From contig WJMA01000054.1 of NCBI GenBank assembly GCA_014728175.1, positions 71,673 through 135,672 of the forward strand: 64,000 bases of DNA. The letters are read 5' to 3'. Origin of the DNA: Candidatus Fermentibacterota bacterium. Its GTDB lineage: Bacteria; Fermentibacterota; Fermentibacteria; Fermentibacterales; JCC-6. This document shows, in pieces, positions 51,150 to 64,000 of the stretch; within the stretch, counting starts at the first letter, position 1; each line of letters begins with the position of its first letter. The notes under the pieces are model-generated. The model saw only the letters and a list, made by a program, of their open reading frames with translations, was not told the origin of the DNA and made no database searches. Position numbers and translations under genes: made by a program.

Positions 51150-52580
51150 ATGAAAGAGGGCCTGGTTCAGGATCTGCAGGAGATCGTAGGCGAGGACGCC
51201 GTAAGGGACGACCCGGCCGATCTCTACGTGTACGGGTCCGACTCTTCGGTACATTGCGCCCTTCCGTGGGCCATCGTTCGTCCCGGCACGGTGGAGGAGG
51301 TGCAGGAGATCCTGCGTTACGCGAACAGCAACGGCATACCCGTCGTAACCAGAGGGGCCGGCTCGGGCATGTCCGGGCAGGCCGTCCCCATCCAGGGCGG
51401 AATCATCCTGGATATGAAAAGGCTGAACAAGATCCTCGAGATCAGCCCCGAGAACACGTACGTTAGGGTGCAGGCCGGAGTGGTCGACGACGACCTCAAC
51501 CGTGCTCTCAAGCCTTACGGCTTCATGTATCCACCCGCTCCGGCATCCAGCAGGATAGCCACCATAGGCGGGGAGATCGCGAACAACGCCAGCGGCACCA
51601 GATCCGTCAAGTACGGAGCTACCAGGGATTGCGTTCTGGGCATGAAGGTAGTGATGGCGGACGGCAGCCTGGTAAACCTGGGCTCCACCACTCGCGTAGA
51701 GGCCAGCGGCTACCAGGTGGACAGGCTGATGGTAGGCTCCGAAGGCACACTTGGCGTAATCGTCGAGGCTACCATGAAGATAGTCCCCATCCCCAAGTAC
51801 AGGTGCATGGGAGTCGCCTGCTTCAACGAGCTCGAGGAGGCCGGCGACACCATCTCCGAGATAATCGCCAGCGGGACACAACCCTCGGTGCTGGAGCTGA
51901 TGGACAACGTGGCCATCACCGCGGTGAACACGGCCATCGATCTCGGCCTTCCCGACGTGGAGGCCCTGCTGTTCATAGAGGCCGACGGCAACGTTAAGGA
52001 AGCCGTCGACTACGAGATCGAGAGGATGAAGGAGATAGCCGAGAAGTACAACGCTTTCGGCATCGATATCAGCTACGACGCAGAAAAGCGCACCAAGCTC
52101 TTCAAGGGACGCAAGAAGCTCTTCGCATCCCTGTCCAGGTACAAGGAAGGCTACTCCTGCACCTCCCTGGCCGACGACATGGCCGTACCCTACAGCAGGA
52201 TGGCCGAAATGGCCCGGAAGATCCACGATATAGCGGACCGCAACGACGTGATAATGACCGCCTACGGTCACTGTGGCTCGGGCTGCGTGCACACCAAGAT
52301 CCTGATGGACCCTACCCGGAAGGAGCAGTGGGAGGGCGCCAGAAACGCGGTCAGAGAGATATACGAGTACGTCCGCTCCGTCGGGGGGACGACTTCGGCC
52401 GAGCACGGAATAGGTCTTTCCAAAGCCCCGGCCTGGAAGAAGGAGAAGCAGGACTCGCTGGAAATCATTGGGGCCATAAAGAAAGCTTTGGACCCCAACA
52501 ACATTCTCAATCCGGGCAAGCTTCAGGACGCCCCGGACGACTGGCTGACCGCAACAGACCTTCGGTACAAGGCGGAATAG
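51150..52580 (+). CDS. FAD-linked oxidase, GlcD/D-lactate dehydrogenase family
   Basis: FAD-binding PCMH domain (…VVTRGAGSGMSGQAVP…) and C-terminal …EHGIGLSKA… motif; start at M20 (MKEGLVQ). Confidence 0.85.
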   Translation: MKEGLVQDLQEIVGEDAVRDDPADLYVYGSDSSVHCALPWAIVRPGTVEEVQEILRYANSNGIPVVTRGAGSGMSGQAVPIQGGIILDMKRLNKILEISPENTYVRVQAGVVDDDLNRALKPYGFMYPPAPASSRIATIGGEIANNASGTRSVKYGATRDCVLGMKVVMADGSLVNLGSTTRVEASGYQVDRLMVGSEGTLGVIVEATMKIVPIPKYRCMGVACFNELEEAGDTISEIIASGTQPSVLELMDNVAITAVNTAIDLGLPDVEALLFIEADGNVKEAVDYEIERMKEIAEKYNAFGIDISYDAEKRTKLFKGRKKLFASLSRYKEGYSCTSLADDMAVPYSRMAEMARKIHDIADRNDVIMTAYGHCGSGCVHTKILMDPTRKEQWEGARNAVREIYEYVRSVGGTTSAEHGIGLSKAPAWKKEKQDSLEIIGAIKKALDPNNILNPGKLQDAPDDWLTATDLRYKAE

Positions 52581-52587
52581 GTGTAGA

Positions 52588-53646
52588 ATGCTTACCGACT
52601 ACCTCAACGAATGGAAAGACGAGCTAAACATCTGCATCAGGTGCGGCTACTGCTTCGAGGGATGCCCGATCTTCAAGGACGGCGGATGGGAGCTGGACGG
52701 AGCCAGGGGCAAGGTGATCCTGGCCTATGGCCTGCTCTCCGGAGAGCTGGAGCCGACCGAGTACGTGGCGGAGAAGCTTTACCAGTGCACCTACTGCAAG
52801 GACTGCATAGAGAAGTGCTCCGCAAACGTTTCCATCCCCGATATCATGACCGCCGCCAGGGCCGATCTCCGGGAGGCTGGTTTCACCTACGACTCCCACG
52901 CCGATCTCCTGAGCAAGGTGACCGAGTCGGGAAACATCTTCGGCAAGGAGCTGAAGGGTCCGGCCACGGAGGGCGAGGTACCCGTTCTTCTGGGTTGCCG
53001 CTTCCTGGAACGGCGCGACGATGCGGAGCGGTACCTCGAGATGCTCCGGAAGCTGGGCATCGAACCAGTAGTCATCGAGGACGAGATCTGCTGCGGCATG
53101 CCCTTCGGAGTTCTGGGCTACAAGGAAGAGCTGGCCGAGCACAAGAAGAAGTTCAAGGAGAGGTTCCCCCACCAGAGGTTCATATGCCTCTGCACCACGT
53201 GCGCCTTCTTCATATCCAAGTCCTATCCGGAGCTGGAGCCGGTGTACGTAATAGACGAGATCCATAAGAGGCTTCCCGATGCCGACCTGACCGAGTTGGG
53301 CATCAAAACCACGTACCACGATCCCTGCAACGTCAGCAGGGGAATGGACATGGTGGACGAGCCCCGCGACATAATCGACTGGTTGGGCGCCGAGCTCGTC
53401 GAGTTTCCGAAGAACGCGAAGGAGACCGAATGCTGCGGGGGAGGCGGCGGGGTCCTGGTAACCGACAAGCCGCTGTCGACGAGACTCGCCGAGAAGAGGA
53501 TCCGTCAGGCGGGAGAGCTGGGCGTAGACCACCTGGTCACCCTCTGCCCCACCTGCGAGCTCAACCTGAGAAACGCGGCCGATTCCACGGGAACGGACGT
53601 AGAGGTCAGGAACCTGCTGGATCTGGTCTGTGACTCGGTACTGTAG
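52588..53646 (+). CDS. Fe-S oxidoreductase partner of the GlcD-like dehydrogenase (GlcF/HdrD-like: 2x4Fe-4S plus two CCG domains)
   Basis: CIRCGYCFEGCP and CTYCKDCIEKCS ferredoxin motifs; CCG-domain motifs (…LLGCRF…, …CCGGGGG…). Confidence 0.85.
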   Translation: MLTDYLNEWKDELNICIRCGYCFEGCPIFKDGGWELDGARGKVILAYGLLSGELEPTEYVAEKLYQCTYCKDCIEKCSANVSIPDIMTAARADLREAGFTYDSHADLLSKVTESGNIFGKELKGPATEGEVPVLLGCRFLERRDDAERYLEMLRKLGIEPVVIEDEICCGMPFGVLGYKEELAEHKKKFKERFPHQRFICLCTTCAFFISKSYPELEPVYVIDEIHKRLPDADLTELGIKTTYHDPCNVSRGMDMVDEPRDIIDWLGAELVEFPKNAKETECCGGGGGVLVTDKPLSTRLAEKRIRQAGELGVDHLVTLCPTCELNLRNAADSTGTDVEVRNLLDLVCDSVL

Positions 53647-53666
53647 GCTTACGGCACCTGGGAACC

Positions 53667-54251
53667 ATGAATGGTGAGGACAGCATGACAGCCAATTTCA
53701 AGGATCTCGAGAAATGGAGCCCCGAGCTCAACATATGCATCCGATGCGGCTACTGCTACGAGCTGTGCCCGCTTTACAAGGCCCATCCCTGGGAGTCCGA
53801 CACTCCCCGGGCCAAGATGCTCCTGGTCTACGGGCTCTTGACCGGTGACCTCGAACCCTCGCAACACGTGGCGGAGAAGATAAGCGAGTGCTTCTTCTGC
53901 AAGAACTGCGAGAACAACTGCTCCGCCAACGTCCCGGTGACCGACATTATCAAGGAGGCCAAGGCCGCCCTGGCCGAGGCCGGTTACGAGGTAGACCGCA
54001 CCGCCAGCACCGTCGACGAGGACCTCTGCTGCCGTTGCTACACCTGCGTATCGGTGTGCAAGGCCGAGGCGGTCGAACCCGACGAGGATGGGCAACCGGT
54101 GGTCGATCCGGTGGAGTGCGAGGGGTGCGGCGTTTGCGCCGCTTCGTGCCCGTCGGGAGCGATCTCCCAGAAGGACGGGTTCGGAGTATCCAGAGAAGAG
54201 CTGCGGCAGTTGCTTTTGGACACTTTGCGAAAGGGGGCCCAGGTTGAGTGA
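53667..54251 (+). CDS. HdrC-like poly-ferredoxin (four Cys4 motifs)
   Basis: CIRCGYCYELCP, CFFCKNCENNCS, CCRCYTCVSVCK and CEGCGVCAASCP. Confidence 0.7.
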   Translation: MNGEDSMTANFKDLEKWSPELNICIRCGYCYELCPLYKAHPWESDTPRAKMLLVYGLLTGDLEPSQHVAEKISECFFCKNCENNCSANVPVTDIIKEAKAALAEAGYEVDRTASTVDEDLCCRCYTCVSVCKAEAVEPDEDGQPVVDPVECEGCGVCAASCPSGAISQKDGFGVSREELRQLLLDTLRKGAQVE

Positions 54252-54666
54252 GGATCCCAGGATAGTGGTCTTCTGCTGCAACTGGTCGATTTATCCCGGG
54301 CTCCAGCTGTCGGCGATCGACGAGAATCCAGACGATCTTCCCGGGGTGAGCCACATAGTCTCCATGTGCTCGGGGAGGGTCTCACCCGAGCTGGTCATAG
54401 AGGCCTTCGTTAACGGCGCCTGGGGCGTAATGCTCGCCGGTTGCCCGACCGACGAGTGCGAGCACGATGGCAACTACAAGACCAGAAAACGCTTCATAAT
54501 GCTACGTAAAGTTTTGGAGGAATTCGGCATTGAGCCGGGTAGGATAAGCATGGACTGGTTCTCTACCGGAGAGGTCGCGAAGCTCAAGCAATCGGTGCGG
54601 GAGTTCGTCGACCGTATAACGGAGATGGGACCGGCTAGAGTCGTAAAGGAACAAGAACTCGGATAG
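54244..54666 (+). CDS. mvhD: MvhD-family [2Fe-2S] protein, copy 2 (hydrogenase-associated)
   Basis: IVVFCCNWSIYPGLQLS…GCPTDECEHDGNYK; TTG start at 54244 after AAGGGGG, overlapping the upstream stop (alternative GTG at 54265). The track's 52-codon upstream extension is rejected. Confidence 0.75.
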   Translation: MSEDPRIVVFCCNWSIYPGLQLSAIDENPDDLPGVSHIVSMCSGRVSPELVIEAFVNGAWGVMLAGCPTDECEHDGNYKTRKRFIMLRKVLEEFGIEPGRISMDWFSTGEVAKLKQSVREFVDRITEMGPARVVKEQELG

Positions 54667-54674
54667 GAGCCCGT

Positions 54675-55655
54675 ATGTCATCTAAACCAAAGGTGGCGTT
54701 CTACTGGAACGCCTCTTGCGGCGGATGCGAGGAAGCCGTCGTAGACCTCGCCGAAGATATACTCCAGGTGGTCGAGGCAGTGGACATAGTCTTCTGGCCG
54801 GTCGCCCTGGACTTCAAGAAGAAGGACGTAGAGGCGATGGACGACGGAGAGATCGCGGTCAGCTTCATCAACGGCGCAATCAGGACCGACGAGCAGAGGG
54901 AGATGGTCGAGCTTCTCAGGCGCAAGTCGGGGCTGGTGGTCGCCTTCGGCTCCTGCGCCCACATAGGGGGGATACCCGGGCTGGCAAACTTCTACAACCG
55001 GGAGCTCATCTTCGACCGGGCCTACAGGACGGTACCCAGCACACCGAACCCCGACGGGGTGCTTCCCCGGACCAGCTCCGACATCGATGACGACGAACTA
55101 ACGCTTCCGGAGTTCTGGGACACCGTAAAGACCCTCGACCAGGTGATAGACGTGGACTACTACCTTCCCGGCTGCGCCCCTCCCCCGGACCTCATCATGG
55201 ACGCGGTCACCGCTATTCTGGAGGCGAACCTCCCGGAGAAGGGCACGGTCCTAGCGCCCAGGAAGAATCTCTGCGACACCTGCCCCAGATCAGAGAGCAA
55301 ACCGGACAAGATCTCCATAGAGAGCCTGAAGCGGCCCTACGAGATCGAGGCCGATCCGGAAAAATGCTTTCTGGAAGAGGGCATAATCTGCCTGGGCATG
55401 TCGACCAGATCTGGCTGCGGAGAGAGGTGCATAAACGCCAACATGCCCTGCAGGGGTTGCTTCGGTCCGGCCGAGGAGGTGTTCGACCAGGGAGCCAAGG
55501 GTCTTTCGGCCATAGCTTCCATACTGGGTCTGGAGAAAGAGGAAGAGCTCACGGACGAGGACATAGAGAGGCTGATCGACAGAATACCCGATCTGGCGGG
55601 CCTGTTCTACATGTACAGCCTTCCCTCCTCGCTACTTCGAAGGAAGAAGCTCTAG
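54675..55655 (+). CDS. mvhG: [NiFe] hydrogenase small subunit, Mvh/group 3c type (MvhG)
   Basis: VAFYWNASCGGCEEAV…FGSCAHIGGIPG proximal-cluster motifs; 326 aa. Confidence 0.85.
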   Translation: MSSKPKVAFYWNASCGGCEEAVVDLAEDILQVVEAVDIVFWPVALDFKKKDVEAMDDGEIAVSFINGAIRTDEQREMVELLRRKSGLVVAFGSCAHIGGIPGLANFYNRELIFDRAYRTVPSTPNPDGVLPRTSSDIDDDELTLPEFWDTVKTLDQVIDVDYYLPGCAPPPDLIMDAVTAILEANLPEKGTVLAPRKNLCDTCPRSESKPDKISIESLKRPYEIEADPEKCFLEEGIICLGMSTRSGCGERCINANMPCRGCFGPAEEVFDQGAKGLSAIASILGLEKEEELTDEDIERLIDRIPDLAGLFYMYSLPSSLLRRKKL

Positions 55656-55708
55656 TTGGATAACGACACGGACCCTGCCACAGGCATTCTGGGAGGAATG
55701 GAACAACG

Positions 55709-57172
55709 ATGGCGAACAAACGAGTCACTATAGACCCTATCACCAGGCTGGAGGGCCACGGTAAGATAGAGATATTCCTCGACGATGAGGGGAACGTGGA
55801 CAAGGCGTTCCTCCAGGTCCCAGAGCTGAGGGGATTCGAGAAGTTCTCCGAGGGACGGATGGCCGAGGAGATGCCCAGGATAACCCCCAAGATATGCGGC
55901 GTCTGCCCCACCACCCATCACATGGCCTCCGGCAAGACTTTGGACGATCTATTCAACGTAGACCCCCCGCCCGCGGCGAAGAAGATACGTGAGCTGGTCA
56001 ACTCGGCGTTCATGGCGGAGGACCACACCCTCCACTTCTTCTTCCTGGGTGGGCCCGACTTCATCGTGGGCCCGGACGCCCCCGCGGGCCAGAGGAACAT
56101 TCTGGGGGTGATCGAGAAGGTCGGCCTGGACGCCGGCAAGAAGGTGATAGAGATCCGCAGGCGCCTGCGCGACATAATCACCAAGCAGGGCGGCAGGGTG
56201 ATCCACCCGGTCTGCAATCTCCCCGGCGGGGTGTCCAAGGGCGTCACCGAAGAGGACCGTCAGGAGTACATCCAGACCGGCAAGGACGCCATAGACTTCT
56301 CGCAGTTCGCCTTGCAGGCGTTCTCGGACATAGTCCTGGAGAACGAGAGGTACGTCAACATAATCACCTCCGACGTTTACCTGCACCATACGTACTACAT
56401 GGGCCTGGTCGACGAGGACAACAAGGTGAACTTCTACGACGGCGAGATCAGGGTGGTGGACCCCGACGGCGAGGAGTTCGCCAAGTTCGACGCCCACGAG
56501 TACCTCGACCACATAGAGGAGCACGTGGAACCCTGGAGCTACATAAAGTTCCCCTTCCTCAAGAACGTAGGTTGGAAGGGATTCGTCGACGGCAAGGACA
56601 GCGGTGTCTACCGGGTCGCGCCGCTTGCCAGGCTCAACGCATCCGACGGCATGGCCACTCCCAAGGCCCAGGAGGCCTACGAGCAGATGTACGACGTGCT
56701 GGGAGGAAAACCCGCCCACAACACTCTCGCCTACCACTGGGCCAGGCTGATAGAGCTCCTGTATGCGTCTGAAAGGCTGCTGGAGCTGGCCGAGGACGAG
56801 GAGATACTGGACCCCAAGATCAGGAACATCCCCACCGACACTCCCGACGAGGGAGTGGGAGTGGTGGAGGCACCCAGAGGAACCCTCTACCACCACTACA
56901 AGACCGACGACAGAGGAGTTCTCACCGACGTCAACCTGATAGTGGCCACGGTGAACAACTCGGCAGCCATATCCATGTCCATCGCCAGGGCGGCCGAGAA
57001 GGTTATATCGGGCAGAGAGGTCGCCGACGGCCTTCTTAACCTGGTGGAGATGGCCTTCAGGGCCTACGACCCCTGCCTGGCCTGCGCCACCCACTCCCTT
57101 CCCGGCGAGACGCCGCTGGAGGTAAGGGTCTACGATCACCGGAGGGAGCTGCTGCAGACCCTCACCAGATGA
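55709..57172 (+). CDS. mvhA: [NiFe] hydrogenase large subunit, Mvh/group 3c type (MvhA)
   Basis: N-terminal RLEGHGKI and RICGVCPTTHHMAS (L1 Ni-binding CxxC); C-terminal DPCLACATHS (L2) followed by a cleavable tail. Confidence 0.9.
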   Translation: MANKRVTIDPITRLEGHGKIEIFLDDEGNVDKAFLQVPELRGFEKFSEGRMAEEMPRITPKICGVCPTTHHMASGKTLDDLFNVDPPPAAKKIRELVNSAFMAEDHTLHFFFLGGPDFIVGPDAPAGQRNILGVIEKVGLDAGKKVIEIRRRLRDIITKQGGRVIHPVCNLPGGVSKGVTEEDRQEYIQTGKDAIDFSQFALQAFSDIVLENERYVNIITSDVYLHHTYYMGLVDEDNKVNFYDGEIRVVDPDGEEFAKFDAHEYLDHIEEHVEPWSYIKFPFLKNVGWKGFVDGKDSGVYRVAPLARLNASDGMATPKAQEAYEQMYDVLGGKPAHNTLAYHWARLIELLYASERLLELAEDEEILDPKIRNIPTDTPDEGVGVVEAPRGTLYHHYKTDDRGVLTDVNLIVATVNNSAAISMSIARAAEKVISGREVADGLLNLVEMAFRAYDPCLACATHSLPGETPLEVRVYDHRRELLQTLTR

Positions 57173-57627
57173 AAACGCTGGTCCTGGGGCTGGGCAATCC
57201 GATACTGAGCGACGATGCCGTGGGCATCAGGATAGCCCGGGAGCTGCGGAAACGGGTCGACGGAGTGGACGTCGAGGAGGGAGCGGTAGCGGGGATAACC
57301 ATCCTCGACCACATACAGGGCTACGACAGCCTGGTGATCGTAGATTCGATCAAGACCGGAAAGTCACCCCCCGGGCATCTGCACGTCCTTCGGCCGGAGG
57401 ACCTGGACTGCGTGACCAGACCGTCGCGCTCCCACCACGGTCTGGGGCTGGTCAGAGCACTGAGCATAGGCAAACGCATGGGCTACGATCTGCCGGATAC
57501 AATTAGGATATACGCAGTGGAGGTTCTGCGGAACGACGAGTTCGGCGAGGATCTGTCCCCCCAGGTGGAGGAAAGCGTTCCCGCCGTAGTCGAGGCCATA
57601 GCGTCCTACCTCACCGAAAGACAGTAG
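57169..57627 (+). CDS. hydrogenase maturation endopeptidase (HycI/FrhD/HybD family)
   Basis: 152 aa; MKTLVLGLGNPILSDDAVGIR…HGLGL… motifs; 4-bp overlap with mvhA. Confidence 0.85.
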   Translation: MKTLVLGLGNPILSDDAVGIRIARELRKRVDGVDVEEGAVAGITILDHIQGYDSLVIVDSIKTGKSPPGHLHVLRPEDLDCVTRPSRSHHGLGLVRALSIGKRMGYDLPDTIRIYAVEVLRNDEFGEDLSPQVEESVPAVVEAIASYLTERQ

Positions 57628-57639: not shown

Positions 57640-59007
57640 TCAGGCCCTGTACACCGTCTTCGCGTTCACGAACTCCAGTATTCCCTCCCTGGATAGTTCC
57701 CTGCCGTAACCGGATCCCTTGATCCCTCCGAAGGGAAGCCGGGGATCGGATCGCACGAACGTGTTCACGAAGCAGCAACCCGCCCGCAGCCGATCCGCGG
57801 CTATGCGCTCGCCTTTCTCCACGTCGGACGTGAAGACGGCGGCTCCCAGTCCGAAGGAGGTGTCGTTTGCCAGCCGGATGCATTCCTCCTCGTCCGCCGC
57901 CTCCAGCACGGCCGCCACCGGGCCGAAGGTTTCCTCGTCGAACGCGGGCATGCCCTTACTCACCCCGGTCAGAACCGACGGAGGATAGAACCAGCCCCGG
58001 CCCCCGGGCATCTCGCATCCCAGCGCCACCGAGGCTCCCATCTTCACGCTCCTCCGGACCTGGCCGTGGATCTCCTCCCGCAGATCGGCCCTGGCCATGG
58101 GCCCTACGTCCACCCCTCCTTCCAGCGGATCTCCCATCGTCCTGGCGGCCATTCGCTCGATCAGCAAATCGCAGAAATCGAAGGATACCTTTCTCTCCAC
58201 GATCATCCTCTTCGCCGATATGCAGCACTGCCCCGCGTTTATGAGCCTGGAGAAGGCACACGTCTCGGCGGCCGCGCGCAGGTCCGCGTCCGCCAGGATC
58301 ACGTAGGGGTCGCTTCCGCCCAGCTCCAGCACGGACGGAATCAGGGAGGCCCCCGCCGAGCTGCCCACGGAGATCCCGGCCGGGGTGCTTCCGGTGAGGG
58401 ACACCCCCCTCACTCTAGGGTCGGCGATGACGTCGGAAACCTTGTCGGAGGGCAGAACGAGTACGTCGAACAGGCCCTCGGGGAAACCGGCGCCCCGAAT
58501 GATCTCACCTATCCTCAGAGCACAGCCGGTCACGTTGGACGAATGCTTCAGAAGGGCGGCGTTTCCGGCCATGAGTGACGGGGCGAGGAACCGGAATACC
58601 TGCCAAAAGGGAAAGTTCCAGGGCATCACCGCCAGCAGAACCCCCAGCGGCCTGTACGTCACGTAGCTTCTCGCCGCGTCCGTGGGTATCGGACGGTCTT
58701 CCAGATGCGCCTCGGCGTTCCCGGCGTAGTAGTCGCATACCCGGGCGCACTTCTCAGCTTCCGACCGGCCCTCGGTCAAGGGCTTGCCCATCTCCGTCGC
58801 CATCAGCCGCGCCAGGTCCGAGGCCCGCTCTCGAAGCAGCCGAGCAGCTCCGCCCATAACCTCCGCCCGTTCTCCGAACCCGGTCGCCGCCCATTCCCGC
58901 TGGGCGGACTCCGCCGCCTCCAGCATCTCCTCGATCCGTTCCGGAGAGGTCTCCGAGTACGACGCTATACGTTCCTCCGTGGATGGGTTGTACGATTCGA
59001 GTGCCAC
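57640..59007 (-). CDS. NAD(P)-dependent aldehyde dehydrogenase (succinate-semialdehyde dehydrogenase-like)
   Basis: 455 aa; ELGGSDP catalytic Glu region and QCCISAKR catalytic Cys. Confidence 0.85.
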   Translation of the reverse strand: MALESYNPSTEERIASYSETSPERIEEMLEAAESAQREWAATGFGERAEVMGGAARLLRERASDLARLMATEMGKPLTEGRSEAEKCARVCDYYAGNAEAHLEDRPIPTDAARSYVTYRPLGVLLAVMPWNFPFWQVFRFLAPSLMAGNAALLKHSSNVTGCALRIGEIIRGAGFPEGLFDVLVLPSDKVSDVIADPRVRGVSLTGSTPAGISVGSSAGASLIPSVLELGGSDPYVILADADLRAAAETCAFSRLINAGQCCISAKRMIVERKVSFDFCDLLIERMAARTMGDPLEGGVDVGPMARADLREEIHGQVRRSVKMGASVALGCEMPGGRGWFYPPSVLTGVSKGMPAFDEETFGPVAAVLEAADEEECIRLANDTSFGLGAAVFTSDVEKGERIAADRLRAGCCFVNTFVRSDPRLPFGGIKGSGYGRELSREGILEFVNAKTVYRA

Positions 59008-59262
59008 AGGGCCCTCCTTTCACCATCTGAAATATCCGATCCAAAAGCCCAACCGGAACCGATTCTAACGAAAGCCCTCTGGTAACCGTTGTCAATCGGC
59101 CACATCCATTACATGGCTAATTATCAACCTGGGAATAAGTTAACAGTGATATCAAGGGAGGCCGAGAGCATCCATAGTGGGCGAGGACGCCCTTCAAATT
59201 CCGACAGAAAAAGTATCAAACTCATGGCAGTCAGGGCTTTGTGAATCCAGCAACGATCTAGC

Positions 59263-59274
59263 GGGTATCGATAC
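59263..59274. promoter_or_regulatory. Perfect 12-bp palindrome GGTATCGATACC in the 458-bp divergent intergenic region
   Basis: Read directly; a second ATCGAT-containing element (CTATCGATCATCGA) lies ~22 bp downstream. Candidate regulator-binding sites. Confidence 0.3.
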
Positions 59275-59465
59275 CGCCTCGCGGCCTTGACTATCGATCA
59301 TCGACTTTGTTGGTTACCGTTTCTGCACGACTGGGCTCGCAGCCGACAGGCCAGGGGGGAGCCCCGAACCAGTTACGATCGAGGTTTTCCTGTCGGCCCA
59401 TCAAAACCGGGTTAGGTCTGCACCGCAAGGTGTTGGAAGACTGAGAGGTCTCGGTTCTCAGCGAT

Positions 59466-60491
59466 ATGCATTACCTGAGCCATGATAGACTCAGGCAGCT
59501 TCTGGAAAAGCTGACCTCCAGCTACAGTGTGTTCGTCCCGGTGGAGGACGGCAGCGGTCTACAATACGTTCCCTACACGTCGGACCTGGAGCATTTCGAC
59601 CCCGGCCAAGTCAGAGCGTTCGAGCCCCTTAAGCTCTTCTTCCAGAGGGCCCGGGAGGTAGTCGCCCAAGACTACGACACCGACCTTCCCGGCCAAGATA
59701 AGAAGCCGGTCTGCGTGGTGGGGGCCAAGGCCTGCGACCTCAAAGGGTTCAAGGTCCTTGACCATGCCCTGCTGAAGGGCGAGTACGAGGACCCGTTCTA
59801 CAAGAGGAATCGGGAGCGGAACCTGATCATCTCCTGCGACTGTACCACCGCCCTGGACACCTGCTTCTGCATGGCCATGGGGGTGAAGCCTTTCCCCGAG
59901 GAAGCCTTCGACATCAACCTGTCTCCCGTGGAGGGGGGTTACCTCGTCGAGGCCGGATCTAAGAAGGGAGAGGCCCTCCTGGAAGCGTCCTCGGGCATTC
60001 TGGGGGAGCCGGACCAGGACATGATGGCAGAGAGGGGTAGAACCCGCAACCAGGTGGCCGAGCTGGTCCAGGCCAACATCGAGGAGTCGGGGGTGCCCGA
60101 CCGGAAGAGTCTGGAAGGCGCGGTCAGACGCATGTACGATTCCGAGGTATGGGCGGACGAGGCCCGGACCTGCGTGGAATGCGGGGCATGCAACACCATA
60201 TGCCCCACCTGCCACTGCTTCCTGCTTTACGACCAGAAGAACGAAGGAAAGATGGAGCGCCTCCGCATCTGGGACTCCTGCCTGTTGAAGGGATTTGCCC
60301 GGGTCGGCGGAGGCGACAATCCACGGCCGGAGCTGTGGATGCGGCTTCGCAACCGGTTCGAGAAGAAGTTCGATTTCTTCCCGGAGGTGGCGAACGTCTA
60401 CGCCTGTACCGGCTGCGGCAGATGCATCACCGGTTGCCCGGCCAAGATAGACATAAGAGAGGTTCTGGGCAGGTTGGTTTCCAATGGGTAA
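59466..60491 (+). CDS. AsrA-family Fe-S protein (anaerobic sulfite reductase subunit A / sulfhydrogenase beta-like)
   Basis: Colinear with AsrA blocks: …VCVVGAKACDLKG…, …ISCDCTTALDTCFCMAMG…, CVECGACNTICPTCHCF, …IWDSCLLKGFARVGGG…, CTGCGRCITGCP. Confidence 0.8.
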   Translation: MHYLSHDRLRQLLEKLTSSYSVFVPVEDGSGLQYVPYTSDLEHFDPGQVRAFEPLKLFFQRAREVVAQDYDTDLPGQDKKPVCVVGAKACDLKGFKVLDHALLKGEYEDPFYKRNRERNLIISCDCTTALDTCFCMAMGVKPFPEEAFDINLSPVEGGYLVEAGSKKGEALLEASSGILGEPDQDMMAERGRTRNQVAELVQANIEESGVPDRKSLEGAVRRMYDSEVWADEARTCVECGACNTICPTCHCFLLYDQKNEGKMERLRIWDSCLLKGFARVGGGDNPRPELWMRLRNRFEKKFDFFPEVANVYACTGCGRCITGCPAKIDIREVLGRLVSNG

Positions 60492-61308
60492 TACCACCAA
60501 TCCCTACAGCATGGTGCGCTCGAGGGTGCTGAAGGTGGTCAAGGAGACCCCCACCATATACACGATAAGGCTCAAGCCCGACCGGGAGGTCCCTTTCGAT
60601 CCCGGTCAGTTCATCCAGCTGACGGTTCCGGGGGTGGGCGAGGCGCCCTTCACCCCCTCCTCTCACTACAGGAAGCCCGAGACCCTCGACGTAACCGTGG
60701 CCCGGGTGGGCAAGGTCACCGACAGGATCCACCAGCTCAGCCCGGGAGACGAGGTAGGGATACGGGGGCCCTACGGCAACAACTACCCGCTGGAAGATTT
60801 CCGGGACCGCGAAGTTCTGGTGGTGGGCGGCGGCGTTGGGTTCGCCCCGATGAGGGCGGTTATGTACGGCCTGTTCGACATCGTATCCAGCCTGGCCAAG
60901 CTCCTCTACCGGGGCGGTTGCAGGAATCCCTCCGAGCTGGTGTACCGCGAGGAGATGTCCCGATGGTTCGACCGCGACGACCTGAACATCGTTCTTACCG
61001 TGGACGAGGGCGACGAGACCTGGCGGGGCCCCACCGGCGTGGTCACCACCATCCTGGAAGACCTTAGCCTGGACTTCGAGAGCGCGGTGGCCATCGTCTG
61101 CGGGCCACCCATAATGATGAAGTTCTCAACGCTGAAGCTTTTAGAGATGGGCTTCTCCGATTCCAACATTTTCCTGTCCATGGAGAAGAACATGTCCTGC
61201 GCGATAGGACAGTGCGGTCACTGCAGGATAGGCCCCTACTACTGCTGTACCGACGGGCCGGTTTTCAGGTACTCACAGATCAAGCAGTACCCTAATATCT
61301 GGGACTGA
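60484..61308 (+). CDS. AsrB-family FAD/NAD(P)-binding reductase with C-terminal 2Fe-2S (sulfhydrogenase gamma/PyrK-like)
   Basis: …GQFIQLTVPGVGEAPFT… (FAD), …VLVVGGGVGFAPMRAV… (NAD(P)), …MSCAIGQCGHCRIGPYYCCTDGPVF… (2Fe-2S); 8-bp overlap with the asrA-like gene. Confidence 0.8.
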   Translation: MGNTTNPYSMVRSRVLKVVKETPTIYTIRLKPDREVPFDPGQFIQLTVPGVGEAPFTPSSHYRKPETLDVTVARVGKVTDRIHQLSPGDEVGIRGPYGNNYPLEDFRDREVLVVGGGVGFAPMRAVMYGLFDIVSSLAKLLYRGGCRNPSELVYREEMSRWFDRDDLNIVLTVDEGDETWRGPTGVVTTILEDLSLDFESAVAIVCGPPIMMKFSTLKLLEMGFSDSNIFLSMEKNMSCAIGQCGHCRIGPYYCCTDGPVFRYSQIKQYPNIWD

Positions 61309-61314
61309 CGGAGG

Positions 61315-61890
61315 ATGGAAAGAACCAAGAGCTTCAAGGGCAGCGCTGAGCAGTTGCACATGGGACGGGCCAACCCCGAGCCCCGGCCGGGGAGCGACCT
61401 CAGGCTGTACGTCGACCTGGACGTCTGCGCTACCGGCGAGTGCGAGGAGTGCGTCGTCGAGTGCAGCTACTTCTACCACCCCTGGAACAACGGGATTGTA
61501 TCAGCGGTGGAGCTCGCCACCTACTACCTGGTCTGCAGGCGCTGCGAAGAGCCCCATTGCGTCAACGCCTGTCCCAAGGACGCGCTGGCGCAGCTGGAGG
61601 AAAAGGACAACATGCTGGTCAGGTACCCCATCCGGTGCATCACCTGCCGGTCCTGCTCGCACGCCTGTCCTTACGGGACCATCTATCCCGAGCTGGTGCC
61701 CCAGCTGGTCCACATATGCGATTTCTGCTACGACCGGCGTGACCTGGAGGACGAGCCCCTGTGCATCAAGTCCTGTCCCTACGGAGCGCTGAAACTTATG
61801 CCCGCGGACACCGAGCTCGACGAGAACACGTTCCTGGTTGGTGACAACCTCATAGTCCATTCGACTCACTGGGACAGAGAGAAGGCATGA
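61315..61890 (+). CDS. HycB/CooF-like 4x[4Fe-4S] ferredoxin subunit
   Basis: CRRCEEPHCVNACP, CITCRSCSHACP, CDFCYDRRDLEDEPLCIKSCP and an N-terminal CATGECEECVVEC cluster. Confidence 0.75.
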   Translation: MERTKSFKGSAEQLHMGRANPEPRPGSDLRLYVDLDVCATGECEECVVECSYFYHPWNNGIVSAVELATYYLVCRRCEEPHCVNACPKDALAQLEEKDNMLVRYPIRCITCRSCSHACPYGTIYPELVPQLVHICDFCYDRRDLEDEPLCIKSCPYGALKLMPADTELDENTFLVGDNLIVHSTHWDREKA

Positions 61891-62810
61891 TCTACCTCCT
61901 CTATCTGCTGGTTTACGGTTTTCTGGCCACCGCGGCGCTGGGCCTTTTCCTAAGCTGGGTGGACCGGAAGGTCACGGCCAGGGTCCAGTACAGGGTGGGT
62001 CCCCCACTGCTTCAGCCTCTGTACGACGTAGTCAAGCTGATGGGCAAGGAGAACCTGATACCGGCGGGAGCCTCCCGCCTGGCGTTCGTGTCCGCGCCCC
62101 TTATCGGCTTCTCCTCGGTGGTGGTGGTGTCCGCCCTCCTGTGGAGCAACAACCTCAATCCTTCCCAGAGCTTCATGGGGGACTGGATAGTGGTCATCTA
62201 CCTGCTCACCATCCCCTCCATCAGCATCATCATGGGCGGGTTCGCCTCCAAGAACCCCCTGGCCAGCCTGGGAGCCTCCAGGGAGATGAAGCTCCTTATC
62301 GCTTACGAGCTCCCCTTCATTCTGGCCGCGCTGGTCCCGGTCATCAACTCCGGAGGCTCGCTTCGACTGGGCGAGATCCTCACCTGGCAGGCCGAGGCGG
62401 GGGCTACGGCCACCAACCTCTCGGGCATCATAGCCCTGCTGGTCATGATCCCCACCATACAGGCCAAGCTGGCGCTGGTTCCCTTCGACATCCCCGAGGC
62501 GGAGACCGAGATAGTGGAGGGCCCGATGGTGGAGTACTCCGGCACCGGCCTGGCGCTGTTCAAGCTTATGAAGAATATGCTCCTGTTCGTGATCCCCTTC
62601 TTCGCCACCATACTCTTCCTGGACGGGATTACCTTTCAGGGGATACACATACTGTGGGGAGCCCTGAAGATAGTGGTTCTGGTGGCTCTGGTCACAGTCA
62701 TCCGCAACACCAATCCGAGGGTGCGGATAGATCAGGCCCTACGTTTCTTCTGGGGGCCCGTAACGCTGCTGGCGGTCGCGGCCGTCGTGCTGGCGTACCT
62801 GGGTTTATAG
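61887..62810 (+). CDS. group-4 [NiFe] hydrogenase membrane subunit (NuoH/HycD/EchB family)
   Basis: 307 aa, ~8 TM, conserved …RKVTARVQYRVGP…LQPLYDVVKL… NuoH-family N-terminal block. Confidence 0.85.
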   Translation: MIYLLYLLVYGFLATAALGLFLSWVDRKVTARVQYRVGPPLLQPLYDVVKLMGKENLIPAGASRLAFVSAPLIGFSSVVVVSALLWSNNLNPSQSFMGDWIVVIYLLTIPSISIIMGGFASKNPLASLGASREMKLLIAYELPFILAALVPVINSGGSLRLGEILTWQAEAGATATNLSGIIALLVMIPTIQAKLALVPFDIPEAETEIVEGPMVEYSGTGLALFKLMKNMLLFVIPFFATILFLDGITFQGIHILWGALKIVVLVALVTVIRNTNPRVRIDQALRFFWGPVTLLAVAAVVLAYLGL

Positions 62811-62832
62811 CAATGTGTTTCGGGAGTAACCG

Positions 62833-63255
62833 ATGAGCATCAAACTCAAGGCGCTTCTCAAGTCACCCTGGGTGTTCCACTTCTCGACGGGAAGCTGCAA
62901 CAACTGCGATATAGAGATCCTGGACTGCCTTACTCCCAGGTTCGATATCGAGCGTTTCGGGATGCTGCTGGCCGGCAGCATCAAGCACGCGGACGTCCTT
63001 CTGGTAACCGGCTCCTGCAACCGGATGTCCGCCGACAGGCTAAGAAAGCTCTACGACCAGGTACCCAAGCCCTGTCTGGTGGTGGCCATCGGTGAGTGCT
63101 CAATGTCCAGGGGGATGTTCATTCACAGCTACAACTGTCCGGTTCCCCTGGACCATATCGTGCCGGTCGACGTTTACATCCCCGGTTGCCCGCCCAAGCC
63201 GGAAGCGATCATCGCAGGCGTGGTCAAGCTGATAGAGAAGGTACGCAGCTCATGA
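62833..63255 (+). CDS. group-4 [NiFe] hydrogenase small subunit (NuoB/HycG/EchC family)
   Basis: …FSTGSCNNCD…VAIGECSMSRGMF…IPGCPPKPEAI… carries the four Cys of the NuoB-type [4Fe-4S]. Confidence 0.85.
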   Translation: MSIKLKALLKSPWVFHFSTGSCNNCDIEILDCLTPRFDIERFGMLLAGSIKHADVLLVTGSCNRMSADRLRKLYDQVPKPCLVVAIGECSMSRGMFIHSYNCPVPLDHIVPVDVYIPGCPPKPEAIIAGVVKLIEKVRSS

Positions 63256-63725
63256 ACCGAGAAGAGATACTCCAGGATCTCAGGAGCAGGTTCGCCGGAG
63301 ACATCCTGGACTTCCAGGACAAGAGCCCGAAGAGGGTTTTCGTGGAGATAAGGCCCGAGGCTTTGAAGCAGGTGGCCCGACACGTATTCTTCGACCTGAA
63401 GGCCCGGTTCAACATAGCCTCCGGCATCGACACCCGGCGGGCGATAGAGATCCTTTACCATTTCACCATCGAAGACATAAACCTGATGATAAACCTCCGG
63501 GTGAAGCTGGACCGAGACCACCCGGTGATAGAGTCGCTGGCCCCCTGGATAGAGGCCACGAACTGGATCGAGAGGGAGATAAGCGAGCTTCTCGGAGTCG
63601 AGTTCAAGGGCCATCCGGACATGCGCAGGCTGCTTCTGGCCGACAACTGGCCTGAAGGCGTTTATCCACTCAGGCAGGACTACGAGGAGTGGGACGAAAC
63701 AGCGATAAGGGACAGAGGCGTCTGA
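63252..63725 (+). CDS. NuoC/EchD-like 30-kDa subunit of the group-4 hydrogenase
   Basis: Start at M53 of the track ORF (MNREEIL) gives ATGA overlaps on both sides; …ERE…GV.F.GHP…RRLLL… NuoC-family C-terminal block. Confidence 0.8.
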   Translation: MNREEILQDLRSRFAGDILDFQDKSPKRVFVEIRPEALKQVARHVFFDLKARFNIASGIDTRRAIEILYHFTIEDINLMINLRVKLDRDHPVIESLAPWIEATNWIEREISELLGVEFKGHPDMRRLLLADNWPEGVYPLRQDYEEWDETAIRDRGV

Positions 63726-64000
63726 TGGGCAAGAGAACCGTAGTTCCCATAGGGCCGTTCCATCCGCTGCAGGAGGAACCGGAGTTCTTTACCCTCACCG
63801 TCGAGGGCGAGCGGGTGGTGGACATAGACGTCCGCATAGGGTACAACCACAGGGGCATCGAAAAGCTCTCCGAGCGGAAGAACTTCGACCAGAGCACCTT
63901 CGTCATAGAGAGGATCTGCGGAATCTGCTCCACCAGCCACCCCTTCGCCTACACCAGGGCCGTGGAGGACGTATTCCCCATGGAGGTGCCCGAAAGAGCC
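63725..64000 (+). CDS. group-4 [NiFe] hydrogenase large subunit (NuoD/EchE/HycE family); partial, continues beyond window end
   Basis: MGKRTVVPIGPFHPLQEEPEFFTL…RIGYNHRGIEKL…RICGICSTSHPFAY retains the N-terminal Ni-binding CxxC pair, arguing for a true hydrogenase rather than a Cys-less Ehr/Nuo paralog. Confidence 0.8.
   Translation, partial: MGKRTVVPIGPFHPLQEEPEFFTLTVEGERVVDIDVRIGYNHRGIEKLSERKNFDQSTFVIERICGICSTSHPFAYTRAVEDVFPMEVPERA

What the first reader, a model, noticed from the sequence alone, without database searches (positions are those of the whole stretch)
59466..64000. AsrA/AsrB-like NAD(P)H-Fe-S module placed directly in front of a minimal group-4 energy-converting [NiFe] hydrogenase
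AsrA-like (341 aa) and AsrB-like (274 aa; FAD, NAD(P), 2Fe-2S) genes overlap by 8 bp. A HycB/CooF-like polyferredoxin follows 6 bp downstream, then four genes overlapping by 4 bp (NuoH-, NuoB-, NuoC-, NuoD-like), with the NuoD-like large subunit retaining its Ni-binding cysteines. No AsrC (siroheme) gene is present.

Group-4 hydrogenases are known with ferredoxin, formate or CO as partner. A dedicated pyridine-nucleotide-type diaphorase module (homologous to sulfhydrogenase beta/gamma of soluble group 3b) fused to a membrane-bound group-4 enzyme would imply ion-gradient-coupled NAD(P)H:H+ oxidoreduction, or a sulfur/sulfite-linked variant. Further membrane subunits may lie beyond the window end.
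Basis: partly seen in the sequence, partly recalled or inferred. Interest (0 to 1): 0.65.

Follow-up and report, generated by a model that had tools for sequence, protein, structure and literature searches.

The report
Known "Hun" membrane hydrogenase operon
The genes are real, but they are the first half of the already published 16-gene "Hun" (Mbh-Mrp-oxidoreductase, group 4g) membrane hydrogenase operon found in many uncultured anaerobes, here in a Fermentibacteria genome; whether NAD(P)H is its electron partner remains untested.

Summary
Seven co-directional genes occupy 59466-64000. They encode a sulfhydrogenase-beta/AsrA-like protein, a gamma/AsrB-like protein, a 16-Cys polyferredoxin, NuoH-, NuoB- and NuoC-like subunits, and the first 92 codons of a [NiFe] large subunit.

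The cluster is not "minimal". A contig 95% identical to the window (L083) and 80 related loci continue with a full 395-aa large subunit. Mrp-type antiporter subunits, a NuoI-like ferredoxin and HycI/hyp genes follow.

The A-B-C-D-E-F-G order is kept in every related locus that has enough flank, across more than 15 phyla. No asrC is present in the window.

This is the "hun" operon of Glass et al. 2021, which HydDB places in group 4g. Other papers call it the "Mbh-Mrp-oxidoreductase type" or an "enigmatic" cooF-asrA-asrB-Mrp hydrogenase.

The NAD(P)H idea is reasonable:
- HunA and HunB best match the beta and gamma subunits of P. furiosus sulfhydrogenase I.
- The FAD, NAD(P) and 2Fe-2S motifs of HunB are at least 95% conserved.
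- Rex-like operators sit upstream of hunA in 15 of 66 relatives.

The idea is neither new nor tested. Bird et al. 2019 already proposed "ferredoxin or NADH".

Verdict: a new member of a known, uncharacterised kind, of modest interest.

The parts
59008..59465 (.). 458-nt G+C-rich non-coding region between a divergent aldehyde dehydrogenase gene (57640-59007, minus strand) and hunA. It presumably holds the operon promoter.
   Evidence: No sigma-70-like promoter or terminator was found. No Rfam family matched. No Rex-like box with 2 or fewer mismatches occurs anywhere in the window. The region is 95% conserved in L083.
59466..60491 (+). hunA: an AsrA / sulfhydrogenase-beta-like Fe-S subunit (341 aa).
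   Evidence: Pfam Fer4_22 7.6e-30. NCBIfam ShyB 166 bits, HydB 137 and AsrA 134, all below their cut-offs. The best PDB match is 9nez_B, sulfhydrogenase 1 beta, at 1.5e-38 over residues 9-335. 15 Cys are invariant in 66 orthologues.
60484..61308 (+). hunB: an AsrB / sulfhydrogenase-gamma-like flavoprotein (274 aa) with FAD, NAD(P) and [2Fe-2S] domains.
   Evidence: Pfam FAD_binding_6, NAD_binding_1 and DHODB_Fe-S_bind. PDB 9nez_C 1.8e-50 over the full length. The motifs GEaPFTPSS, vGGGxGxAPxR, CGPP and four C-terminal Cys are each at least 95% conserved in 70 orthologues.
61315..61890 (+). hunC: a HycB/FdnH-type polyferredoxin (191 aa) with 16 conserved Cys, enough for four [4Fe-4S] clusters.
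   Evidence: Pfam Fer4_11 1.4e-14. PDB matches to FdnH 1kqf_B, HDCR HycB3/HycB4 7qv7 and MvhB. The Cys are 89-96% conserved in 74 orthologues.
61887..62810 (+). hunD: a NuoH/MbhM-like membrane subunit (307 aa).
   Evidence: Pfam NADHdh 4.4e-69. 45-71% identical to 76 orthologues.
62833..63255 (+). hunE: a NuoB-like hydrogenase small subunit (140 aa) with four Cys for the proximal [4Fe-4S] cluster.
   Evidence: Pfam Oxidored_q6 1.8e-27. C22, C25, C89 and C119 are invariant in 80 orthologues. The identical protein is encoded on L083.
63252..63725 (+). hunF: a NuoC-like subunit (157 aa).
   Evidence: Pfam Complex1_30kDa 1.4e-26.
63725..64000 (+). hunG, 5' part: the first 92 codons of the [NiFe] large subunit, cut off by the end of the window.
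   Evidence: The L1 motif RICGICSTSH is present. Pfam NiFeSe_Hases 4e-9. All 92 residues are identical to the 395-aa HunG of L083, which ends in DPCYCCTER plus a 33-aa extension. The full-length relative from L014 best matches MbhL 6cfw_L (1.5e-91) and HycE 7z0s_E (1.9e-84).

Best explanation
**Identity.** The region is hunA to hunG', the 5' half of a hun operon. [quoted passage not shown] The genome is a Candidatus Fermentibacteria bacterium.

**What is shown**
- The seven gene identities.
- The cofactor motifs.
- The conserved operon structure.
- The continuation into Mrp-like subunits in a same-species contig.

**What is inferred (mechanism)**
- HunB binds NAD(P)H at an FNR-type FAD/NAD(P) domain.
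- Electrons pass through its [2Fe-2S] cluster to the Fe-S clusters of HunA, as in the gamma-to-beta relay of sulfhydrogenase I.
- They then pass through the four clusters of HunC, in the position HycB holds in formate hydrogenlyase.
- They continue to the NuoI-like HunP, the NuoB-like HunE and the [NiFe] site of HunG.
- Proton reduction is coupled through HunD and the Mrp-like subunits HunH to HunO to Na+/H+ movement.

**Thermodynamics (inferred).** NADH to H2 is uphill by about 94 mV under standard conditions. It becomes exergonic only below roughly 60 Pa of H2. The complex would therefore work close to equilibrium and reversibly. At low H2 and high NADH it would vent NAD(P)H electrons as H2, helped by the ion gradient when needed. 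In reverse it would conserve energy from H2-dependent NAD(P)+ reduction.

**Confidence.** Identity as a hun operon: about 0.95. NAD(P)H as a physiological partner: about 0.5-0.6.
For: **Gene identities**
-.

**Continuation and synteny**
- L083 is 95.2% identical in DNA to window 58615-64000. It carries a full HunG (395 aa), HunH (563 aa, Proton_antipo_M) and the start of HunI.
- L001 and L002 show A to P plus hypA-F and HycI.
- tblastn of A to P against 82 loci gives the same order in every locus with enough flank.
- At least 593 related stretches exist among GTDB species genomes.

**It is a true hydrogenase**
- L1 is R[IV]CGICSxSH and L2 is DPC[YN]CCT[ED]R in 77 of 77 relatives.
- A 31-46-aa C-terminal extension follows, and a HycI protease gene is present.

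**Input module**
- HunA matches SHI beta and HunB matches SHI gamma over their full lengths.
- In HunB, GGGxGxAP aligns with the NADH motif of NqrF, and CGPP aligns with the same motif in NqrF. Both are at least 95% conserved in 70 orthologues.
- The best match of HunP is HycF of formate hydrogenlyase. HunC is of the HycB/FdnH type.

**Regulation in relatives**
- Rex-like boxes lie 26-184 nt upstream of hunA in 15 of 66 loci, against 0.23 expected.
- 10 of the only 12 near-perfect sites in 1.32 Mb are at that position.
- A rex gene sits directly upstream of hunA in Atribacterota locus L017.

**Literature**
- bioRxiv 10.1101/536078 section 8: the hun operon, group 4g, the CYCC motif.
- PMC6469976: co-transcribed in situ; "ferredoxin or NADH".
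- PMC8542988: each Omnitrophota MAG has exactly one hydrogenase, of group 3b, 3d, A3 or 4g.
Against: - No biochemistry exists for any Hun complex.
- The authors who named it propose ferredoxin, not NAD(P)H, as the donor to HunABC (10.1101/536078).
- HunA and HunB score below every NCBIfam equivalog cut-off. They are a separate subfamily whose substrate could differ.
- NADH-driven H2 evolution cannot pump ions except at very low H2, which sits awkwardly with a large antiporter module.
- From my own knowledge, Rex also controls ferredoxin-dependent hydrogenases in some bacteria, so the Rex boxes are not specific evidence.
- The window itself has no Rex box and no rex gene.
- The C-terminal half of hunG and hunH to hunP are not in the window. 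They are inferred from L083 and relatives.
Confidence: 0.6

Rival explanations
1. Ferredoxin-only Hun, the published model. Reduced ferredoxin donates to HunABC or directly to HunP. H2 evolution pumps H+/Na+ as in Pyrococcus Mbh. The flavin and nucleotide domains of HunB are vestigial, or serve only as an Fe-S/flavin relay.
For: - This is proposed in 10.1101/536078 section 8 and assumed in PMC8542988, PMC9324843 and PMC5030696.
- The closest solved relative of HunG is the ferredoxin-dependent MbhL.
- Ferredoxin to H2 is exergonic enough to drive the Mrp-type module (established bioenergetics).
Against: - The NAD(P)-binding glycine motif, the CGPP motif and the FAD motif of HunB are at least 95% conserved across about 70 species from many phyla. 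That is not expected for a vestigial site.
- HunAB match the NADPH-linked beta and gamma subunits of SHI over their full lengths.
- Mbh needs no such module to accept ferredoxin.
- Rex boxes and an adjacent rex gene occur in relatives.
Confidence: 0.27
2. A sulfur-linked variant. HunAB reduce polysulfide, S0 or another sulfur compound with electrons from H2 or the membrane arm, as once proposed for the beta and gamma subunits of sulfhydrogenase. The complex would then be an ion-translocating H2:sulfur oxidoreductase.
For: - Homology to the sulfhydrogenase beta and gamma subunits.
- Bird et al. mention "and/or reduce sulfur compounds" (PMC6469976).
- Kirkegaard et al. annotate a sulfhydrogenase in Fermentibacteria (PMC5030696).
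Against: - No siroheme (AsrC) or molybdopterin sulfur reductase is present in the window or in most relatives.
- From my own knowledge, S0 reduction by SHI is generally regarded as a non-physiological side activity.
- No sulfur-handling genes are linked to the operon.
Confidence: 0.07
3. Chance adjacency. asrAB belong to a separate anaerobic sulfite reductase and merely lie next to a hydrogenase operon.
For: NCBIfam gives AsrB-like 236 bits and AsrA-like 134 bits.
Against: - Both scores are below the equivalog cut-offs of 288.6 and 323.
- No AsrC was found in the 64 kb.
- The A-B-C-D-E-F-G order is kept in all 66-70 loci that have enough flank, across many phyla.
- Median junctions are -4 to +8 nt. 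In the window the genes overlap by 8 bp or are 6 nt apart.
Confidence: 0.01
4. A non-hydrogenase relative (Ehr, Mbx/Mbs or Fpo-like) that only resembles a hydrogenase.
For: NCBIfam lists NuoD and FpoD as the top partial matches for the 93-aa fragment.
Against: - The L1 cysteines are in the window.
- L1 and L2 are present in 77 of 77 relatives and in L083.
- A C-terminal extension, a HycI protease gene and hypA-F genes are adjacent in relatives.
- MbhL and HycE outrank MbsL and Nqo4 among solved structures.
Confidence: 0.01

Closest known systems
hun operon / Hun supercomplex (Glass et al. 2021, bioRxiv 10.1101/536078; HydDB group 4g). Also called the "Mbh-Mrp-oxidoreductase type" (Meheust et al., 10.1101/765248) and the cooF-asrA-asrB-Mrp hydrogenase of Saganbacteria (PMC6349859).
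   Same: - The gene order is the same: AsrA-like, AsrB-like, polyferredoxin, NuoH-, NuoB- and NuoC-like, then the large subunit.
- In L083 and relatives, Mrp-like subunits and a NuoI-like ferredoxin follow.
- There is no AsrC.
- The L1 motif is CGIC and the L2 motif is CYCC.
   Different: - The host is Fermentibacteria. Section 8 of that paper, which I read, names Atribacteria, Firmicutes, Omnitrophica, Elusimicrobia, Bacteroidetes and Kosmotoga. Fig. 3A and Table S5 were not checked.
- HunA to HunF are at most about 67% identical on average to the nearest of 80 species-level loci.
- Only hunA to hunG' lie inside the window.
Pyrococcus furiosus membrane-bound hydrogenase Mbh (PDB 6CFW; group 4d)
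   Same: - The large subunit is the closest solved homologue (1.5e-91).
- It has NuoB-, NuoC-, NuoH- and NuoI-like subunits and an Mrp-type antiporter module.
   Different: - Mbh takes ferredoxin directly and has no AsrAB-like or HycB-like input module.
- In the hun operon the hydrogenase genes come before the Mrp-like genes.
- HunG has a C-terminal extension and a HycI protease gene.
Escherichia coli formate hydrogenlyase FHL-1 (PDB 7Z0S; group 4a)
   Same: - The modular logic is the same. A soluble substrate module is wired through a HycB-type polyferredoxin to a HycF-like subunit (the best match of HunP), then to the small and large subunits.
- The large subunit has a DPCxxCxxR motif with a C-terminal peptide that is cleaved in FHL-1.
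   Different: - The substrate module here is the flavoprotein pair HunAB instead of the molybdoenzyme FdhF.
- The membrane arm here is Mrp-type.
Pyrococcus furiosus soluble sulfhydrogenase I, beta and gamma subunits (PDB 9NEZ/9NF0; group 3b)
   Same: - HunA and HunB align over the full length with beta and gamma.
- The Cys patterns and the FAD, NAD(P) and [2Fe-2S] motifs are the same.
   Different: - The partner is a membrane-bound group 4 hydrogenase, not the cytoplasmic group 3 alpha and delta subunits.
- Scores are far below the ShyB/HydB and ShyC/HydG equivalog cut-offs.
Salmonella-type anaerobic sulfite reductase AsrABC
   Same: The AsrA-like and AsrB-like proteins share a fold and cofactor set with AsrA and AsrB.
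   Different: - There is no siroheme subunit AsrC.
- Scores are below the TIGR02910 and TIGR02911 cut-offs.
- The pair is always linked to hydrogenase genes.

Membership tests
Hun / Mbh-Mrp-oxidoreductase-type group 4g [NiFe] hydrogenase | Gene order: AsrA-like, AsrB-like, polyferredoxin, NuoH-, NuoB- and NuoC-like, large subunit (hunA to hunG). | tested here: met
   Window ORFs and Pfam hits. The same order is found in L001, L002, L083 and in all related loci with enough flank.
Hun / Mbh-Mrp-oxidoreductase-type group 4g [NiFe] hydrogenase | Downstream Mrp-antiporter-like subunits (hunH to hunO) and a NuoI-like ferredoxin (hunP). | tested here: inconclusive
   These lie beyond base 64000, so they cannot be seen in the window. 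The 95.2%-identical contig L083 continues with HunG, HunH and the start of HunI. 55 or more related loci carry H to P.
Hun / Mbh-Mrp-oxidoreductase-type group 4g [NiFe] hydrogenase | Large-subunit motifs: L1 CGIC and L2 CYCC (10.1101/536078). | tested here: inconclusive
   L1 RICGICSTSH is in the window. L2 is outside the window. It is DPCYCCTER in L083, whose first 92 residues are identical to the window's, and CYCC in 76 of 77 relatives.
Hun / Mbh-Mrp-oxidoreductase-type group 4g [NiFe] hydrogenase | HydDB or phylogenetic placement of the large subunit in group 4g. | not testable with these tools
   No HydDB classifier or reference set is available here. The placement is taken from 10.1101/536078. 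Among solved structures MbhL and HycE are closest.
[NiFe] hydrogenase, group 4 (functional hydrogenase rather than Ehr/Mbx/Fpo/Nuo) | Four nickel-binding cysteines (L1 and L2), a NuoB-like small subunit with a 4-Cys cluster, and maturation genes. | tested here: met
   L1 is in the window. L2 is in L083 and in 77 of 77 relatives. Four HunE Cys are invariant. hypA-F and HycI flank the operon in L001.
Anaerobic sulfite reductase AsrABC | A siroheme catalytic subunit AsrC encoded with asrAB. | tested here: not met
   No NIR_SIR-type protein was found among the window ORFs scanned or in the annotated relatives.
Anaerobic sulfite reductase AsrABC | AsrA and AsrB equivalog models (TIGR02910, TIGR02911) above their curated cut-offs. 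| tested here: not met
   134 bits against a cut-off of 323, and 236 bits against 288.6.
Group 3b sulfhydrogenase (ShyABCD / HydABDG) | Beta and gamma subunits encoded with, and attached to, cytoplasmic group 3 alpha and delta subunits; equivalog scores above cut-off. | tested here: not met
   ShyB 166 against 690, HydB 137 against 750, HydG 172 against 650 and ShyC 159 against 600. The partner genes are of group 4 type.
Formate hydrogenlyase (group 4a/4b) | A formate dehydrogenase (molybdopterin) catalytic subunit in the cluster. | tested here: not met
   None is present in the window. A 497-aa molybdopterin protein lies between hunB and hunC only in the Saganbacteria locus L060.

The most novel reading that the evidence does not exclude
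Hun is a true ion-translocating NAD(P)H:H+ oxidoreductase. It would be a fourth coupling type for energy-converting group 4 hydrogenases, beside ferredoxin, formate and CO. It would link the pyridine-nucleotide pool reversibly to H2 through a Na+/H+ gradient. In many lineages it would be switched on by the NADH sensor Rex. Because it occurs in hundreds of uncultured anaerobic species, it would be a major and so far unmeasured route of H2 production or consumption in sediments and digesters.
Probability: 0.4. Interest if true: 0.65.

Novelty: new member of a known kind. Interest (0 to 1): 0.3.

Why it matters
The arrangement itself is not a discovery. It has been named and drawn in several metagenome papers.

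What remains open is the physiological electron partner of a complex found in at least hundreds of species-level genomes. These include Omnitrophota, Atribacterota, Planctomycetota, Elusimicrobiota, Fermentibacteria, Spirochaetota and others.

If NAD(P)H is the partner, these organisms have a gradient-assisted way to vent NADH electrons as H2, or to gain energy from H2 plus NAD(P)+. That would change the energy budgets drawn for many fermenters in the subsurface and in digesters.

Three observations made here give concrete handles for testing this in a cultured carrier:
- the strict conservation of the HunB nucleotide motifs;
- the full-length match of HunAB to the beta and gamma subunits of SHI;
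- the Rex boxes upstream of hunA.

Tried and rejected
**1. A split or frameshifted large subunit.**
- All 143 hits to the 92-aa HunG fragment were shorter than 160 aa.
- HunG is called as two genes in different frames in L001 and L002.
- Reading the DNA shows the breaks are at different codons: extra G's in a G-rich stretch in L001, and a missing T in a T run in L002, which is a 6x-coverage contig.
- 77 relatives and L083 have an uninterrupted gene of about 394 aa.
- I treat the frameshifts as assembly errors. The short hits are probably an effect of how the search picks candidates.

**2. Exact-sequence look-ups to extend the window.**
- HunF, HunD and the 100%-identical PEPCK were not on record.
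- HunE succeeded and gave L083.

**3. Regulatory elements in the window.**
- Rfam found none.
- No sigma-70 promoter or terminator was found upstream of hunA.
- No Rex box was found.
- The upstream element shared by other Fermentibacteria and Aegiribacteria loci is absent from the window.

**4. Synteny of the window flanks with related loci.**
- None was found. The only hits were paralogous similarity between Mvh and Hun subunits.

**5. A paper for PDB entry 9NEZ, to obtain the NADPH-contact residues.**
- It is not in the library.
- NADH versus NADPH specificity was therefore not assessed.

**6. AsrC elsewhere in the window.**
- None was found.

**7. Classification against HydDB.**
- Not possible with these tools.

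Full report
**Observation**

The window carries seven co-directional genes at 59466-64000. Pfam and NCBIfam identify them as follows:
- an AsrA/sulfhydrogenase-beta-like Fe-S protein (341 aa; Fer4_22, 7.6e-30);
- an AsrB/gamma-like flavoprotein (274 aa; FAD_binding_6, NAD_binding_1, DHODB_Fe-S_bind);
- a polyferredoxin (191 aa; Fer4_11);
- a NuoH-like subunit (307 aa);
- a NuoB-like subunit (140 aa);
- a NuoC-like subunit (157 aa);
- the first 92 codons of a [NiFe] large subunit with the L1 motif RICGICSTSH.

The junctions are:

| Junction | Spacing |
|---|---|
| A/B | 8-bp overlap |
| B-C | 6-nt spacer |
| C/D | 4-bp overlap |
| D-E | 22-nt spacer |
| E/F | 4-bp overlap |
| F/G | 1-nt overlap (TGATG) |

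Two of the stated 4-bp overlaps are not. Only half of the nickel ligands can be seen inside the window.

**What lies beyond the window**

The PEPCK gene at 43249-44898 is 100% identical to an NCBI protein of a Candidatus Fermentibacteria bacterium encoded on a 148-kb contig.

An exact look-up of the NuoB-like protein returned L083, an 8.5-kb contig. It is 95.2% identical in DNA to window 58615-64000. Its features are:
- a large subunit whose first 92 residues are identical to the window's;
- a full length of 395 aa;
- an ending of DPCYCCTER plus a 33-residue tail;
- a following 563-aa antiporter-like subunit and the start of an MbhD/E-like gene.

More distant relatives (L001, L002) show the whole cluster:
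- the same seven genes;
- then NuoL-like, MbhD/E, MnhB, NuoK-like, MnhD-like, MnhE, MrpF and MrpG subunits;
- then a NuoI-like ferredoxin;
- hypA-F and HycI nearby.

The enzyme is therefore not minimal. It is an Mrp-linked complex of about 16 subunits.

**Conservation**

A scan of one genome per GTDB species found 593 related stretches, and the best 80 were kept. They come from Omnitrophota, Planctomycetia, Atribacterota, Fermentibacteria, Aegiribacteria, Spirochaetota, Elusimicrobiota, Nitrospirota, Nitrospinaceae, Hydrogenedentota, Sumerlaeota, Saganbacteria, Margulisbacteria, Clostridia and others.

- tblastn with all subunits gives the order A-B-C-D-E-F-G in every locus with enough upstream sequence. 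It gives A to P in every locus with enough flank on both sides. The exceptions are a few Spirochaetota loci where the Mrp block is inverted upstream.
- Median intergenic distances are -12 to +30 nt.
- All 77 full-length large subunits carry L1 R[IV]CGICSxSH and L2 DPC[YN]CCT[ED]R, followed by a 31-46-residue extension. This fits the HycI protease gene in the operon.

The AsrAB-like pair is thus an integral, conserved part of a real hydrogenase operon. No NIR_SIR/AsrC protein was found among the window ORFs scanned.

**Subunit assignments**

The closest solved structures are:

| Subunit | Closest solved structure | E-value |
|---|---|---|
| HunG (from L014) | MbhL, 6cfw_L | 1.5e-91 |
| HunG (from L014) | HycE, 7z0s_E | 1.9e-84 |
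| HunP (from L014) | HycF, 7z0s_F | 4.7e-19 |
| HunC | FdnH / HDCR HycB-type four-cluster ferredoxins | 1e-10 to 1e-7 |
| HunA | P. furiosus sulfhydrogenase I beta, 9nez_B | 1.5e-38 |
| HunB | P. furiosus sulfhydrogenase I gamma, 9nez_C | 1.8e-50 |

The HunA and HunB matches cover the full length.

Across 59-81 orthologues per subunit, one search shows:
- HunA keeps 15 invariant cysteines.
- HunB keeps GEaPFTPSS (the flavin site).
- HunB keeps vGGGxGxAPxR and CGPP. These two pyridine-nucleotide motifs of the FNR family align with the same motifs of NADH-binding NqrF.
- HunB keeps four [2Fe-2S] cysteines at 95% or more.
- HunC keeps 16 cysteines.
- HunE keeps 4 cysteines.
- HunP keeps 8 plus 4 cysteines.

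All NCBIfam scores for HunA and HunB are below the AsrA/B, ShyB/C and HydB/G cut-offs. They form a subfamily of their own.

**Literature**

The arrangement is published.
- Glass et al. (bioRxiv 10.1101/536078, section 8) named the 16-gene cluster hun (HunA to HunP). They noted that HunAB resemble AsrAB without AsrC. They classified HunG as HydDB group 4g with the unusual L2 motif CYCC. They listed Atribacteria, Firmicutes, Omnitrophica, Elusimicrobia, Bacteroidetes and Kosmotoga as hosts. They proposed ferredoxin as the donor.
- Matheus Carnevali et al. (PMC6349859) described an "enigmatic" group 4 hydrogenase with cooF, asrA, asrB and Mrp genes in Saganbacteria.
- Meheust et al. (10.1101/765248) call it the "Mbh-Mrp-oxidoreductase type" and state that the oxidoreductase has unknown function.
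- Bird et al. (PMC6469976) found it co-transcribed in Atribacteria. [quoted passage not shown]
- Williams et al. (PMC8542988, PMC9324843) report group 4g Mbh-Mrp in Omnitrophota, Cloacimonadota and Auribacterota.
- Kirkegaard et al. (PMC5030696) mention a membrane energy-conserving hydrogenase and a "sulfhydrogenase" in Fermentibacteria.
- I found no biochemical study.

**Mechanism**

The operon identity is close to certain. For the electron partner I favour NAD(P)H, for these reasons:
- The nucleotide and flavin motifs of HunB are under strict purifying selection.
- HunAB match the NADPH-linked diaphorase pair of sulfhydrogenase I over the full length.
- Mbh itself accepts ferredoxin without any such module.
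- The HycB-like HunC and the HycF-like HunP reproduce the wiring by which formate hydrogenlyase plugs a soluble substrate module into the hydrogenase arm.

An additional observation made here concerns Rex, the NADH sensor.
- A Rex-operator-like palindrome, TTGTGA(A/T)NNNNTTCACAA, lies 26-184 nt upstream of hunA in 15 of 66 loci at 2 or fewer mismatches.
- Composition-matched resampling expects 0.23, with a maximum of 2 in 300 runs.
- Only 12 sites with 1 or fewer mismatches exist in the 1.32 Mb of fetched loci. Ten of them are at that position.
- In Atribacterota locus L017 a rex gene (PF06971 plus PF02629) sits directly upstream, with the box between it and hunA.

This links hun expression to the NADH/NAD+ ratio in many lineages. 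It is only supportive, because from my own knowledge Rex regulons can include ferredoxin-dependent hydrogenases. The window itself has no Rex box and no rex gene.

Thermodynamics, inferred from standard potentials of -320 mV for NAD+/NADH and -414 mV for H+/H2:
- NADH to H2 is uphill by about 94 mV.
- It becomes exergonic below roughly 60 Pa of H2.
- A NAD(P)H-linked Hun would therefore run near equilibrium.
- It would be either assisted by ion influx or, in reverse, conserve energy from H2-dependent NAD(P)+ reduction.

The direction of ion movement cannot be decided from sequence.

**Rivals**

- The ferredoxin-only model is the main alternative (about 0.27).
- A sulfur-reducing role is unlikely (about 0.07), since there are no sulfur-enzyme partners.
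- Chance adjacency to a sulfite reductase is effectively excluded.
- A non-hydrogenase Ehr/Mbx-type complex is effectively excluded.

**Verdict**

- The feature is a new member, from Fermentibacteria and at most about 67% identical on average to the nearest species-level locus, of a known but biochemically uncharacterised kind.
- Interest is modest at 0.3.
- The open and testable question is the electron partner.

Noticed in passing
L005, L017, L021, L052, L053, L056, L059, L068, L077, L079 and others; 26-184 nt upstream of hunA. Not present in the window.: A Rex-operator-like palindrome, TTGTGA(A/T)NNNNTTCACAA, lies upstream of hunA in 15 of 66 related loci, against 0.23 expected. 10 of the only 12 near-perfect sites in 1.32 Mb are at that position. 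A rex gene (L017 1275-1907) sits directly upstream of hunA in an Atribacterota locus. None of the papers I read mentions this.
   Followed up: yes
window 51093-57627 (+): One co-directional cluster encodes a GlcD/D-lactate-dehydrogenase-like FAD oxidase, an HdrD-like CCG/Fe-S protein, a di-cluster ferredoxin, MvhD, an MvhG-like small subunit, an MvhA-like large subunit and a maturation protease. This looks like a group 3c-type hydrogenase joined to a lactate/glycolate-dehydrogenase-like module without an adjacent HdrA. A LarA lactate racemase homologue lies at 45058-46326.
   Followed up: no
window 48669-50990 (+): A three-domain fusion protein of 773 aa: an N-terminal cyclic-nucleotide-binding domain, acetate kinase, and a C-terminal PTAC (PduL-type phosphate acyltransferase) domain. 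It sits next to a malic-enzyme/PTA fusion at 46363-48621.
   Followed up: no
window 33445-39847 (-): HdrC-like, HdrB-like (CCG) and HdrA-like (651 aa) genes are followed by a 385-aa Fe-S protein and a 559-aa fumarate-reductase-type flavoprotein (FAD_binding_2). This may be an Hdr-linked fumarate or thiol reductase. Genes for succinyl-CoA synthetase, fumarase, aconitase, IDH and PEPCK surround it.
   Followed up: no
L001 10001-11187; L002 7408-8540; one search hit list: All 143 database hits to the 92-aa HunG fragment are shorter than 160 aa. HunG is split into two frames in L001 and L002. The breaks are at different codons in homopolymer or G-rich runs, and 77 other loci are intact. Assembly errors plus a bias in search candidate selection are therefore the likely cause.
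   Followed up: partly
L016, L019, L039, L049, L053, L057, L062, L072, L077 (between hunG and hunH); L055, L064, L065, L074 (between hunO and hunP): These loci have an insertion of about 430-700 nt inside the hun operon. In the loci I scanned (L016, L064 and L075) the inserted ORF is a PhoU-domain protein of about 200 aa. L039 has an inserted ORF with a similar N-terminal sequence. Its role is unknown.
   Followed up: partly
L060 6241-7734; L059 8393-9808; L073/L075 about 11800-13200; L011, L030, L033, L040: Operon variants exist. The Saganbacteria locus has a 497-aa molybdopterin oxidoreductase between hunB and hunC. Three loci have an extra antiporter-like subunit after hunG (scanned in L059 and L075; inferred from an ORF of the same size in L073). 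In Spirochaetota loci the Mrp block is inverted upstream and hunP follows hunG directly.
   Followed up: partly
HunP, e.g. L014 17003-17632 (residues C134, C137, C196, C199): The NuoI-like subunit HunP carries a second conserved four-cysteine set (at least 95% in 59 orthologues) in a C-terminal extension, in addition to the eight Cys of its two [4Fe-4S] clusters. This may be an extra metal site.
   Followed up: no
L022, L024, L027, L029; about 20-50 nt upstream of hunA: Other Fermentibacteria and Aegiribacteria loci share a conserved upstream element, AAACCCCTTGACAAA...TCTCTATTTCTTTGCAATG, which is promoter-like. It is absent from the G+C-rich upstream region of the window and of L083.
   Followed up: partly
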